Origin: Flectonema sp. DT1601
Taxonomy: Eukaryota
Direction: 5' to 3'
Length of the DNA stretch: 64,000 nt
Assembly (NCBI GenBank): GCA_964019425.1
Contig: OZ025801.1
Location: forward strand, 62,001 to 126,000
The stretch's first letter is position 1, and each line of letters starts with the position of its first letter. The notes under the pieces were generated by a model, which was given only the letters and a program-made list of their open reading frames with translations, was not told the DNA's origin and did not search any database. Of this stretch, positions 39,501 to 42,700 are shown in pieces. The position numbers and the translations under genes are program-made.

Positions 39501-39709
39501 CCTTTCATGGTAAGGGGAAGGGGAAGAGACTCTGGCGGGAAGCGGGTGTGAAGATTGAGGAGAGGAAAGGAGCCTTGAAGGAAGTAGGTCCTGTAGAGCA
39601 GGTTGTGACAAAGAAAACTGTGAAGAAGTCGACAGCTGAACAGGATACGATGGAACGAAGGATGGATCGTTTAGAGATGCTGATGACGAGATTCTTGGAA
39701 GGTAAATGA
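36545..39709 (+). CDS. LINE ORF1: Gln/Glu-rich coiled coil plus globular C-terminal region, no CCHC knuckle seen
   Basis: First ATG at 36545; ~1054 codons; ends at TGA 39707-39709. Confidence 0.85.
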   Translation: MPPRGGLGRQRPTKFCNQMGGEILSRKERNQKAHTENGNGKKDRKTSVDTKERDELRERLARDGLRRLDRDEDRKKDEKVLKKKQAEQEEEKNELLQQQELLCKQQSELEVNFQKKQEELFQKQQQLEEVLTNHQQQQLVNQKQLDHQQQQNQEHLHQQQKALTQYEDELCLKQQQQEQQLSHQVKKQQEIQQQQQQQLDQQVQQQQDKHIQQQQQLEHQVQQQHQNQQHSQELLNQQQQELLQYKADLQQKQEQILIQQQQLEQQHSKEKAVEDESLRRRRCQLEEDQRQQQQEQSRIQQNLQLQQVSLEEKQQLLQHQLNVELEKGKLDQQQQQQRREEIKKQEDDLEHQRLQLQRQQEDEMEKGRKELQCLRNKLDMEFEQQKLRSHQLQQQQEKEKEQGRKELLQLQRELGKEFEQQQQEDQKSKLDLELQEGKLRQQQQKLQLQQSSLRQQTHAVSQPPVYYMQHQPYAPMHQRQPYPPVLPQQQGIEQLRLELQKEREEKGELRKLLMELQTQLKELRQELASSRAQRSEEVNEVVVAPSQPPLGIANLVNGLTYSRSYGLTTDESKVRSAVQRNCTSEWESLEKKATQSMKAVEKARRLWEKTNKKEREVLNSWSLREVDWNIPVTKFEEVSKGNQGVALATPSEARDLLGMKPEVPAWKTCSVVTLDQVNGQGRREHVLLSSKDGNKVHRIFIHDLGEAALPKGKRGIKSVKAIVTAPKRRWKDDKWLELASKPEHLITKEMKDTPGFMEAYNFRVTKSTVSAVIRLRKSGAVELLRTSGKDGRFLWIQDEGEAPKDTVIWLQDECSLKEAVEHSDSLESLGLVENPKGFGIRVSPELEDVTREKLGIPAKLPELEISGIPLDVLPREAVALLAKDGWHVRATVDGVRTGYRWMRVRAEVPDDDTVLIDGRACTVEVVQRQDRKKRQAAREVDVKEKTQPTSTAESTPEKGLTPPEKRRDPTEGEASNRCYLRAEFLSFHGKGKGKRLWREAGVKIEERKGALKEVGPVEQVVTKKTVKKSTAEQDTMERRMDRLEMLMTRFLEGK

Positions 39710-42700
39710 CGGCACGTAGATGGAAGGAACTGGGCTGAGACTCGAAGACGTCTCTTGCTGATAGCAGGGGACGTTGAACGAAACCCAGGGCCGAATAGGA
39801 GAAAGGATGGTCCCTCTTGCAAACTAAATGTAATCAGTTGGAATTGTCGCACCATCTCGAACAAAATGGAGTTCATTGGACACATCCTGAGTAAGCTTGA
39901 CCCCGACGTACTTTGCCTTCAGGAGACTTCTTGCAGGATGGCATTGTTTCATTGGAACTACGTTTGCTACAGGAGGGATAGGCCAGGAAGGGGAGGTGGC
40001 CTGATCACTTTAATAAAACGAGGAATTCAACATGATTGCTTTGATATCTCCATACCGTCGATGAGAGGAACCGTCGAGTCGATGGGTGTCAGAATTAACG
40101 AAGACGTAAGTATTCTCAACATCTACTCCCCACCGAGCTCGAGGATTAATTTTGAACTATTCTCCCTTAAACGTGTTGGCAAGTTCATTCTCGCTGGTGA
40201 CTTCAACGCACACCATAGGTACTGGTCCAAGAAAACCGACGTAAAAGGCTGTGACCTTCTCAACTGGACAGGGCAAGAGGACCTCCTGATTGCGAACCCG
40301 CCAGGTCTAGCGACACTGCCGAGACATGGGACCTCGCCCGATCTGATCCTGCACCACGAGGAGATTCAACTGCTTAACTTTGAGCTGGTAGGTGAAGGAA
40401 TTGAGCACGGTTCGGATCATACACCACTCTCTGCTACCTTCGATACGCTCTCACCCCTTGAGCCTTCGGGCAACCACGCGACGAAGAGATCGGTCTGGGA
40501 CTTCAATACAGCTGATTGGTACTCATATGAACATGAACTAGACTACAGGTTTGGAAAGGTAAACAACTCTGCGAGCGTTGGGAGAAGAGCAGTAACGTTC
40601 AACAGAATCGTTCTTGGAGTAGCGAAGAGGTACGTTAGGAGAAGGCTTCGGATCAAAGGGAAGAGAAGAAGAATGTGGAACGCTTCCACCCCAGATACCA
40701 AGCGTGCGAAGGGAAAATTTATCGCTGAACGGCTAGCAAAAGGTGAAGGCTTTGCATATGCGTTCAAAAAGATAAAGGACCTTGAGACGGATGAAGGACG
40801 TGAAATTCACATTCCGGAGTTTGACGAGAACCAACTACCTGCGAAGTTCTTGGAACAATTTGTCAAGACCCCGACAAAACGTAAACTAGGACCTCCGAAT
40901 ACGAAGAGCAGCGACTTCGCCAAAATCGGAGGGAATCTAACAATGACTGAACTGAAGCGAGCCATCAAGAAGGTAAGGCCCGGGAAAGCACCAGGTCCAG
41001 ATGGAATCCATGGGATAATGTTGAAGAACTTATCGGTGATAGGAATGGATTTCCTCCTGGCGTTATTCAATGAATCGTGGCTAACGTCAAAGGTACCGAG
41101 GATCTGGAAGGAGGGTCTTATCAAGCCAGTTTACAAACCAGGTAAGCCAAAAGATAAGATCGCAAGTTTCAGACCGATCACGTTGACCTCGGTGGTGGGT
41201 AAAGTACTTGAAAGAGTGATTTATGATAGGTTGATGTATTGGCTTACCCAGAACAATGCCCTGTCGTCTATCCAGGCGGGTTTTAGAAGAGGAAGGAATA
41301 CGTGTGAGCAGATTTCAATGTTAGTCAACGCTCTTCATGAGGCCAGTGAAAAGAACAAGAGCTCTGTTCTGCTGTCGTTCGACTTCACGGAAGCATTTGA
41401 TAGAATTAATCATGAGAAACTGATCAAGAAGATGAAGAACATGAGTATTCCCTCCCCGTTCATTGCATGGGTAGTTGACTTCCTGAAGGGCAGGCAGGCA
41501 AGGGTGAGTGCGAATGGCAACCTTAGCTCCTACAGAACGGTAACGAGGGGGGTTCCTCAAGGTTCGATTATCGGTCCGCTGCTATACCTGATTTATGTTG
41601 ATGACCTGGCGAAGTTGTTGGAAAAGACTGGCTCAGTTTCGGCTCTTTATGCAGATGACACCGCTTGTGTAGTCTCTGATAAGGACGTTAATTTAACCAA
41701 TAAGAAAGCGCAATGGATCCTTGGACTTGTGGATAGCTGGTGCAAAACCAATGACATGGCACTGTCCGTCTCTAAGACATGTGGTATGCCTGTGCGCTGC
41801 CCAAAGGATATCTACTGGAGACTGGGCTTCCCCAGGACTGCAAAGGATAATTATTACGTTGTAAGCAGGGGAGATCTGGCTAAGATGATCAGACCGAACG
41901 AGTTTGGAAGGCCAATTCTGGGTAGTGGAGAAACCATTCTCAAGGTGGATGATACCGAAGTTGCTAATACGAAGGACCTGCTTGCAATTTTCCCTGATGG
42001 ATCAAGTAAGCTGAGAGTAAAGTTGTTAACCGCAGTACTGATGCCGATGGTAGACAGCGTTAAATACCTGGGGGTGCACATTGATGGTGATTTATCTTAT
42101 GGAACACAGGTCGGAAAGATGCTGGATGAGACCAGGAAGGGTCTTGCACTCCTGGGGAAACTAAAACAGTATGATTTTGATTTTAAGACGCTGTGCATGG
42201 TCAAGAACCTGTACATACTTTCAAGGCTGTCATATGGGCTGGAGAGCTTCGGTCCTTTCCTATCTGAGGGTCAGATTGATCTTGTGGACTTGAATCTGAA
42301 GAAGATTGCGAGAAGGATAACGGGTTGCAGCATCTACACCAGGTCTCTCCCACTGCTCTTGGAGGCGAACATGCTCCCGATGAAGTTGATAATAGAAAAA
42401 CAGGCCAGAACTGCTCTGTTTAGGTATCGATCGCTGAAGTGGGTACGTTCGACGAACCGAATAGCGAAAGGATTCTGGAGTTCTAAGTTGCCGCAGGAAG
42501 ATTGTAACATCGCCCTCCAAGGAATAGTTCAACCTGACAGCATCGAACCTTGGGCGGATGTACCAAATCTAGAGATATCCTGTGGGTATGGTCATAACAA
42601 GACCGGTGATGCAGATGTGGATAGGAACAAATTTGAGGAATACTGCAGGGACCTAGTCCCTTGCAACTCGGCTATATATGTGGACGGCTCACATGATCCT

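What the first reader, a model, noticed from the sequence alone, without database searches (positions are those of the whole stretch)
39690..39793. LINE ORF1/ORF2 junction: single in-frame UGA-CGG followed by a 2A 'StopGo' peptide
Seen: GGT AAA TGA CGG CAC GTA ... CTC TTG CTG ATA GCA GGG GAC GTT GAA CGA AAC CCA GGG CCG. ORF1 and ORF2 share a frame with one stop between them. No in-frame ATG precedes the first APE motif, and the overlapping AUGA start closes after 10 codons. Known: UGA-CGG is a leaky readthrough context in alphaviruses, and DxExNPG|P 2A motifs precede the APE domain in L1Tc/Ingi and other non-LTR elements. Inference: two stacked recoding events, with readthrough setting the ORF1:ORF2 ratio and 2A releasing a free ORF2p without protease or reinitiation. 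A possible stimulatory stem (GAGAC/GTCTC) lies just downstream.
Basis: partly seen in the sequence, partly recalled or inferred. Interest (0 to 1): 0.88.

Follow-up and report, generated by a model that had tools for sequence, protein, structure and literature searches.

The report
LINE stop codon before 2A peptide
A jumping gene in a marine protist has its two genes in one reading frame, separated by a single stop codon and a conserved linker with no start codon that ends in a virus-like 2A peptide; it likely makes its reverse transcriptase by reading through the stop and then releasing the enzyme at the 2A site, an untested two-step route.

Summary
Observation confirmed. A young, intact Ingi-like LINE in a diplonemid-like host has ORF1 (1054 aa) and ORF2 (APE-RT-RNase H-CCHC) in one frame. 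One TGA separates them, followed by 27 codons ending in a class A 2A motif; the first Met is at codon 53, inside the endonuclease. The stop is not a private mutation: 10 of 10 same-family ORF1 copies that reach the C-terminus end there, and 4 sister ORF1s end at the homologous place. A frameshifted sister copy, decoded from its protein, shows the same frame, a likely TGA, no ATG, and a linker under protein-level selection (second codon positions differ 0/16, third positions 9/16). So ribosomes very likely enter ORF2 at or next to the stop. A different 13-bp hairpin covers the 2A codons. Best reading: UGA readthrough then StopGo (0.55). Main rival: L1-like AUG-independent reinitiation (0.30). 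No reads or translation data were available. I found no report of this combination in the open-access library searched. New variant; interest 0.7.

The parts
36525..36531 (+). Candidate target-site duplication TTTTGGC, left copy
   Evidence: Same 7 nt at 43899-43905. One locus only; the 5' boundary could be 36531 or 36532.
36532..36591 (+). Predicted HDV-like self-cleaving ribozyme at the element's 5' end (P1, P2, P3, L3, P1.1 and J4/2 C all placeable); the ORF1 ATG lies inside it
   Evidence: Weak Rfam CPEB3 match (E 1, 17.4 bits, below the gathering score of 35). A structural descriptor finds this single site in 64 kb and none in 60 shuffles of 34 kb; the descriptor was written after seeing the site. 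Activity untested.
36545..39709 (+). ORF1, 1054 aa: Q/E-rich predicted coiled coil, a folded C-terminal half with RRM-like domains (weak evidence), and a conserved terminal helix
   Evidence: AlphaFold pLDDT 91 for 347 aa. Best Foldseek hits are tandem-RRM proteins at E 0.002 or weaker. No Pfam match.
39704..39712 (+). Stop context AAA-TGA-CGG (ORF1 stop 39707-39709, in frame with ORF2)
   Evidence: Stop position shared by 10 of 10 copies reaching the C-terminus. TGA inferred in a sister family; CGG not kept there.
39710..39790 (+). 27-codon AUG-less linker ending in the 2A glycine; likely translated in the ORF2 frame
   Evidence: Against the sister: second codon positions differ 0/16, third positions 9/16, Fisher p 0.0004.
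39767..39793 (+). Class A 2A/StopGo core GDVERNPG|P, preceded by the hydrophobic tract LLLIA; predicted skip between 39790 and 39791
   Evidence: Motif also seen in P0004, P0005 and P0180, and decoded from P0249. Activity untested.
39747..39775 (+). Predicted 13-bp RNA hairpin over the 2A codons, with weaker outer helices spanning 39726-39792; role unknown
   Evidence: z -3.43, 0 of 200 shuffles. 18 of 5000 synonymous recodings fold as well. 12 of 13 pairs kept in the sister, with no two-sided change.
39791..43597 (+). Predicted free ORF2p (1268 aa from the skip-site Pro): APE endonuclease, reverse transcriptase, RNase H, CCHC knuckle; motifs intact
   Evidence: Pfam RVT_1, Exo_endo_phos(_2), weak RNase_H; motif check.
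43598..43898 (+). 3' UTR ending in an A-rich tail
   Evidence: Read from the sequence.
43899..43905 (+). Candidate target-site duplication, right copy, 1 nt before a tRNA gene at 43907-43989

Best explanation
This is the ORF1/ORF2 junction of a young two-ORF Ingi-like LINE in which a minority of ribosomes likely read through the ORF1 UGA, translate a conserved 27-codon linker, and are predicted to skip the Gly-Pro bond at the 2A motif, which would release a free ORF2 protein starting at Pro. Shown: one frame, one stop, no in-frame AUG before codon 53, a family-wide stop at the ancestral ORF1 end, and an intact 2A motif. Inferred from one decoded sister copy: same frame, TGA, no AUG, and protein-level selection on the linker from the first codons after the stop. 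Inferred and untested: that ribosomes enter by readthrough rather than restart, that the 2A is active, and that the hairpin over the 2A codons has any role. Predicted products: abundant ORF1p (1054 aa), and rare ORF1p-X-linker-2A (1082 aa) plus ORF2p (1268 aa). Readthrough would set a low ORF2:ORF1 ratio, and the 2A would spare ORF2p from being fused to a 1000-residue coiled-coil protein.
For: (1) The stop is not private. Of 23 ORF1 cluster members, 15 were listed; all 10 that reach the C-terminus end in FLEGK and the other 5 are fragments. Of 42 ORF2 members, 15 were listed: 8 start at Met53, 1 at Met77, 6 are internal fragments, and none extends upstream. No fused ORF1-ORF2 was among 11 hits of 2268-5000 aa (the tool calls this weak evidence). 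(2) Four sister ORF1s (32-43% identity, one from Flectonema neradi) end at the homologous position after the same helix. (3) P0249, a frameshifted copy of the P0248 family, reads the junction out of frame. Decoding it recovers P0248's last four residues and a TGA-compatible codon in the same frame as the 2A and APE motifs. No ATG is possible before the 2A. 11 of 11 codons upstream of the Leu tract are compatible with the window's residues (2 of 100000 shuffles). Second positions differ 0/11 and third positions 6/11 (p 0.006); over 16 codons 0/16 and 9/16 (p 0.0004). (4) The frame is kept across a 2-codon length difference. The single codon between the sister's stop and the conserved Asp-Gly cannot be AUG or a near-cognate start. 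(5) In 7 of 10 related lineages the called ORF2 has no Met upstream of the 2A position, and two subfamilies about 0.04 changes per column apart differ in having one, so an AUG seems dispensable. (6) The window's context, AA-UGA-C(GG), matches readthrough-favouring contexts in PMC3159437.
Against: No direct data: no genome, no reads, no translation assay. The sister's context cannot be CGG and its +4 base is C or T, so the type II motif is not conserved. The sister evidence rests on one degraded copy, decoded from protein with most first codon positions unknown; its stop codon could also read CGA. 3 of 10 lineages (P0004, P0005, P0180) have a Met before the 2A, as in L1Tc-like single-ORF elements. 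A third ORF1 family (P0245; frameshifted copy P0253) shows no 2A core in either shifted frame after its stop (best 6/8 and 5/8 positions). The hairpin starts 17 nt (outer helix) or 38 nt (main stem) after the stop, against 6-8 nt spacers for the MuLV and SEPN1 stimulators. It has no two-sided change, and the sister's folding energy is unexceptional (-20 to -26 against a null of -20.4 +/- 3.9). [quoted passage not shown] Only 43 of 580 retroelement 2As tested were highly active.
Confidence: 0.55

Rival explanations
1. AUG-independent termination-reinitiation: ribosomes stop at UGA and restart in frame at a non-cognate codon 1-3 codons downstream. They translate the linker, and the 2A trims off a peptide of about 25 aa, as at the N-terminus of L1Tc.
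For: It explains the linker selection equally well. Calicivirus restart tolerates near- and non-cognate codons beside the stop, and L1 ORF2 initiation is described as independent of its AUG (passages of PMC5972666 and PMC5009743). Three lineages keep a Met before the 2A. CGG is not conserved. The predicted 5' ribozyme suggests an RNA that already uses unusual initiation.
Against: Restart does not need ORF1 and ORF2 to share a frame, yet both decoded junctions do, and both use UGA. No start-like codon is shared: the window's candidates are codons 6, 16, 17 and 18, and the sister's first is codon 9 if its residues match the window's. The AUGA overlap is absent in the sister.
Confidence: 0.3
2. 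ORF2 comes from a processed RNA: an 18-nt GT-AG intron at 39702-39719 would remove the stop in frame, or SL trans-splicing or an internal start would feed Met53 or a CUG/UUG.
For: Two in-frame GT-AG pairs (18 and 51 nt) span the stop, one with a good donor, AAG|GTAAAT. The host has SL RNA genes and cis-introns.
Against: The acceptor AG is absent in the sister, where the bases before the Asp codon read T-G. Reported diplonemid median intron lengths are 37-107 nt, and the two host introns read here are about 120-130 nt. A spliced template should give stop-less copies, and none was seen. Starting at Met53 loses the first APE motif and leaves the linker selection unexplained. A pyrimidine-tract test did not discriminate.
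Confidence: 0.07
3. ORF2 of this family is not expressed: it lost its AUG and is mobilised in trans by sister families that keep a Met before the 2A.
For: Copies are about 99.5% identical, so they have had little time to decay. Met-bearing families appear to lie on the same contigs, judged by shared contig lengths.
Against: The window's family and the P0135 family differ at about 28% of ORF2 residues, both lack the AUG, both have several full-length open ORF2 copies, and the linker shows purifying selection.
Confidence: 0.04
4. Frameshift or bypass: ribosomes hop over the stop, or restart at the +1-frame AUG in the Asp-Gly codons (39720) and slip into frame.
For: That out-of-frame AUG is present in both families.
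Against: No XXXYYYZ slippery heptamer in 39601-39870. The AUG follows from the Asp-Gly codons, and the +1-frame peptides are poorly conserved while the ORF2 frame is conserved.
Confidence: 0.04

Closest known systems
L1Tc / Ingi elements of trypanosomes (PMC3708506, PMC3894237, PMC4035085)
   Same: 2A directly upstream of APE; APE-RT-RNase H ORF; predicted HDV-like ribozyme at the 5' end; euglenozoan host.
   Different: Those papers state that Ingi-clade elements do not appear to encode an ORF1. This element has a 1054-aa ORF1 in frame, a stop, and no AUG before the 2A. RT placement against named Ingi sequences was not tested.
CR1-26_BF, CR1-53_BF and CR1-1_LG (named in PMC3708506 as having both ORF1 and a 2A in ORF2)
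   Same: ORF1 plus a 2A near the ORF2 N-terminus.
   Different: Different clade. The parts I read do not describe their junction frame, stop context or start codon, so a similar arrangement there is not excluded.
Type II UGA readthrough (alphavirus nsP3/nsP4, tobravirus; PMC3159437) and MuLV gag-UAG-pol
   Same: In-frame leaky stop upstream of the polymerase; UGA-CGG in the window; a 3' structure is predicted.
   Different: Those polymerases are freed by proteases (own knowledge), not by a 2A. CGG is not kept in the sister family, and the hairpin lies further downstream.
Mammalian L1 and silkworm SART1 ORF2 translation (PMC5972666, PMC2241872, PMC5009743)
   Same: Bicistronic LINE RNA, low ORF2 output; L1's AUG is reported dispensable.
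   Different: L1 has a non-coding spacer of about 60 nt with two in-frame stops and an AUG; SART1 has a UAAUG overlap. Here the spacer is under coding selection, has one stop and no AUG.
Candida Tca2 LTR retrotransposon, gag-UGA-pol (PMC2194720)
   Same: Retroelement with a single in-frame UGA before the RT ORF and a predicted 3' structure.
   Different: LTR element; no 2A is mentioned in the abstract I read; its junction alone failed to give readthrough in yeast.

Membership tests
Ingi/L1Tc clade | APE + RT + RNase H (+ C-terminal Cys/His) in the long ORF | tested here: met
   (RNase H match below Pfam's cut-off; motifs present).
Ingi/L1Tc clade | 2A immediately upstream of APE | tested here: met
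Ingi/L1Tc clade | HDV-like ribozyme at the 5' end | tested here: inconclusive
   All helices placeable at 36532-36591, but the Rfam score is below cut-off and cleavage was not tested.
Ingi/L1Tc clade | Single ORF, no ORF1 (as stated in PMC3708506 and PMC3894237) | tested here: not met
   1054-aa ORF1 with 23 cluster members and diverged homologues. Hence filed as Ingi-like only.
Ingi/L1Tc clade | RT groups with named L1Tc/ingi sequences | not tested
   The tree shows the 11 diplonemid-type ORF2s as one supported group (98/97) but held no named Ingi reference.
Class A 2A (StopGo) | (G/H)D(V/I)ExNPGP core with an upstream leucine-rich tract | tested here: met
   definition from bioRxiv 10.64898/2026.09.24.754024.
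Class A 2A (StopGo) | Measured ribosome skipping | not testable with these tools
   The motif alone does not guarantee activity.
Type II stop-codon readthrough | UGA-CGG or UGA-CUA, conserved among relatives | tested here: not met
   Present in the window; neither triplet is possible in the decoded sister. Base-level context of same-family copies was not seen.
Type II stop-codon readthrough | Conserved 3' RNA structure | tested here: inconclusive
   Strong hairpin in the window; 12/13 pairs kept in the sister (25 of 3000 synonymous recodings keep 12 or more) but no compensatory change and an atypical distance.
Type II stop-codon readthrough | Measured readthrough product | not testable with these tools
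   No reads, ribosome profiling or proteomics available.
SART1-type overlapping stop-start | AUG overlapping the stop that opens ORF2 | tested here: not met
   AUGA opens a 10-codon out-of-frame ORF and is absent in the sister.

The most novel reading that the evidence does not exclude
Diplonemid Ingi-like LINEs express their reverse transcriptase through a natural readthrough-then-StopGo cassette: a leaky UGA meters ORF2 and a 2A 27 codons later frees it, with no start codon and no protease. It would be a readthrough-expressed LINE ORF2 and an evolutionary intermediate between two-ORF LINEs and single-ORF 2A elements such as L1Tc, with a hairpin over the 2A codons possibly coupling the two steps.
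Probability: 0.5. Interest if true: 0.86.

Novelty: new variant of a known kind. Interest (0 to 1): 0.7.

Why it matters
How LINE ORF2 is translated from a bicistronic RNA is a long-standing open question (PMC3894237). This junction is unusually clean: one frame, one stop, no AUG, a linker under coding selection, and a built-in release site that gives ORF2p a defined N-terminus. Readthrough and AUG-free restart therefore predict different products and can be told apart with simple reporters. Either result is informative: readthrough would add a new expression route for LINEs and a natural stacking of two recoding events, while restart would give a minimal natural case of AUG-free reinitiation. 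The element also departs from the published pattern that Ingi-type 2A elements lack ORF1.

Tried and rejected
No own genome is held and no sequencing-run data were obtained, so no junction DNA of other copies was seen directly. Reassigned TGA: rejected, 0 TGA against 32 TGG in frame. Private nonsense mutation: rejected. AUGA stop-start, GAGAC/GTCTC stem, slippery-site frameshift and 18-nt intron: rejected or made unlikely. The metagenome scan gave 80 loci of distant LINEs (25-34% identity), none with a 2A motif: uninformative. The viral scan with the ORF2 alignment found no relative. 2A survey in viral contigs (18 of 64 parts scanned; 128 distinct motifs in 124 loci): 67 were open to the locus edge, 61 had an upstream stop, 3 had it within 60 codons and all 3 had a Met; none matched this architecture. 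The pyrimidine-tract test for trans-splice acceptors did not discriminate. ORF1 had no Pfam, PDB-sequence or Atlas match of weight; the wide fold search did not run. The full-length ORF2 tree is the quick version. The earlier-findings index returned nothing. Paper searches for a LINE using readthrough, with or without 2A, and for diplonemid elements showed no such report. The library is open-access only; Repbase reports and the supplements of PMC3708506 and of the 2026 bioRxiv 2A survey were not seen and could hold similar junctions.
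Full report
Observation. ORF1 (ATG at 36545, 1054 aa) ends with TGA at 39707-39709, the next codon is CGG, and the same frame stays open for 1295 codons to 43597. The 2A core GDVERNPGP (39767-39793) is the only such motif in six frames of the window. The first in-frame Met is codon 53, after the first APE motif. The AUGA overlap and a +1-frame ATG at 39720 open ORFs of only 10 and 13 codons. TGA is a stop here: 0 TGA against 32 TGG in frame.

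What the element is. ORF2 has APE, RT, RNase H and a CCHC knuckle with intact motifs. ORF1 has a Q/E-rich coiled-coil region and a confidently modelled C-terminal half whose best fold matches, though weak, are tandem-RRM proteins. A predicted HDV-like ribozyme marks the 5' end at 36532-36591, as in L1Tc/ingi (PMC4035085, passages). TTTTGGC flanks both ends, with a tRNA gene 1 nt beyond the right copy. The host is probably a diplonemid: there is an array of 5S and SL-like genes (SL identity recalled), and the nearest named relatives are Flectonema neradi transcripts. Eleven diplonemid-type ORF2s form one supported group. No named Ingi reference was in the tree and ORF1 is present, so I call it Ingi-like.

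Is the stop a private lesion? No. No genome or reads were available, so I used called proteins. The ORF1 cluster has 23 members, of which 15 were listed: all 10 that reach the C-terminus end in FLEGK, and 5 are fragments. The ORF2 cluster has 42 members, of which 15 were listed: 8 start at Met53, 1 at Met77, 6 internally, and none upstream. Copies are about 99.5% identical, so the family is young. No fused protein was among 11 long hits (weak evidence). Four diverged ORF1s (32-43% identity) stop at the homologous position after the same terminal helix, so this is the ancestral ORF1 end.

The key test. P0249 is a frameshifted copy of the P0248 family whose tail runs through the junction in another frame, which fixes the second and third bases of each ORF2-frame codon. 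Decoding recovers P0248's last four residues, then a codon that must be TGA or CGA (TGA, given that P0248 stops there), one further codon, and then a linker, 2A core and APE motif all in the same frame. No ATG is possible between stop and 2A. For the 11 codons upstream of the first CUG/UUG, all are compatible with the window's residues (2 of 100000 shuffles), second positions never differ, and third positions differ in 6 (p 0.006); over 16 codons the counts are 0 and 9 (p 0.0004). The linker is therefore very likely translated in the ORF2 frame from within one codon (sister) to three codons (window) of the stop. The one intervening sister codon is neither AUG nor near-cognate, and the frame survives a 2-codon length difference. 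The same decode removes CGG (+4 is C or T; +5 and +6 are CT or TT), the AUGA overlap, and the acceptor of an 18-nt in-frame GT-AG pseudo-intron that I found at 39702-39719. The limits are that this is one degraded copy, first bases are mostly unknown, and near-cognate codons further into the linker cannot be fully excluded.

Wider family. Assuming the gene callers start at the first Met after a stop (consistent with P0219, not verified), 3 of 10 lineages have a Met upstream of a 2A, at differing positions. Two have their first Met just before the APE motif and 5 have it beyond. Two near-identical subfamilies differ in having that Met. The 2A was seen in only 5 of the 10. A third ORF1 family appears to end in TGA but shows no 2A core in the decoded downstream stretch, so the cassette is not universal.

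RNA structure. A 13-bp hairpin at 39747-39775 with outer helices gives -32.4 kcal/mol, z -3.43. 18 of 5000 synonymous recodings fold as well, and none of 116 other 90-nt windows of the element does (window chosen after the fact). The sister keeps 12 of 13 pairs (25 of 3000 controls do), but through one-sided changes only and with an ordinary total energy; the hairpin is the minimum-energy fold in 480 of 768 compatible sequences. It begins 17-38 nt after the stop, further than the 6-8 nt of the MuLV and SEPN1 stimulators (PMC3159437). Its role is open.

Mechanism. Ribosomes must get from ORF1's end into a linker with no start codon. Readthrough explains the shared frame, the single UGA and the lack of an AUG in one step, and gives the 2A a purpose, namely freeing ORF2p from ORF1p (0.55). 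AUG-independent restart beside the stop explains the linker equally well and has precedent in L1 and caliciviruses, but does not need the shared frame (0.30). RNA processing (0.07), passive mobilisation in trans (0.04) and frameshift or bypass (0.04) fit worse. Tca2 is a caution: a gag-UGA-pol junction that failed to give readthrough on its own. 2A activity is also unproven: only 43 of 580 retroelement 2As were highly active in a recent screen, and 56% were intermediate.

Comparison and novelty. 2As before APE are known in non-LTR elements, mostly in those without ORF1; Ingi elements are said to lack ORF1, and three CR1 elements have both. Readthrough is known in viruses and MuLV. I found no report of a LINE ORF2 made by readthrough, or of a stop followed directly by an AUG-less 2A (searches; open-access library only). 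None of 128 viral 2A motifs had this layout.

Papers seen: PMC3708506 parts 1-4 of 6; PMC3894237 parts 1-2 of 3; PMC3159437 abstract, introduction and discussion; PMC2194720 abstract; bioRxiv 10.64898/2026.09.24.754024 passages and section 31; passages only of PMC5972666, PMC8310308, PMC5009743, PMC12621601, PMC10161547, PMC12278014, PMC2657916, PMC2241872 and PMC4035085. No supplements were read. Alisch 2006 and Kojima 2005 are cited through those reviews.

Verdict. The feature is real, family-wide and conserved in architecture. It is a new variant of known parts, and the stacked-recoding reading is the most likely but untested. Interest 0.7.

Noticed in passing
window 36532-36591: Predicted HDV-like ribozyme at the element's 5' end, with the ORF1 ATG inside it, 13 nt from the predicted cut.
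   Followed up: partly
proteins P0245 and P0293-P0299: In 7 members of a sister ORF1 family, ORF1 is open in frame with different upstream sequences (for example a cathepsin gene) and has no Met for 100 codons after a shared start motif. This suggests an AUG-less ORF1 start, or in-frame insertion into host genes.
   Followed up: partly
proteins P0302, P0247 and P0304: ORF1 homologues from two sources carry host-like N-terminal extensions (a weak LRR match in P0247) joined at a similar short motif; possible shared target gene family.
   Followed up: no
window 43899-43989 and 44124-44206: The element sits 1 nt (plus the candidate TSD) upstream of the first of two intron-containing tRNA genes with a GTA anticodon as read from the sequence. 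Possible tRNA-gene targeting; one locus only.
   Followed up: no
window about 300-15220: 25 copies of a 603-bp unit holding 5S rRNA and a spliced-leader-like gene on the minus strand; the SL identity is recognised from recall.
   Followed up: partly
window 35338-36437 (-), 32417-32551 (-), about 45326-45589 (+): Decayed fragments of other LINEs (RNase H and CCHC; RT); none includes a junction.
   Followed up: partly
window 56629-58038 (-), 54720-55735, 15713-15832: MULE transposase ORF, a perfect 113-copy 9-bp array, and an LSU rRNA fragment.
   Followed up: no
protein P0204: A distant 2952-aa single-ORF retroelement protein with two tandem 2A-like motifs at residues 305 and 362.
   Followed up: no
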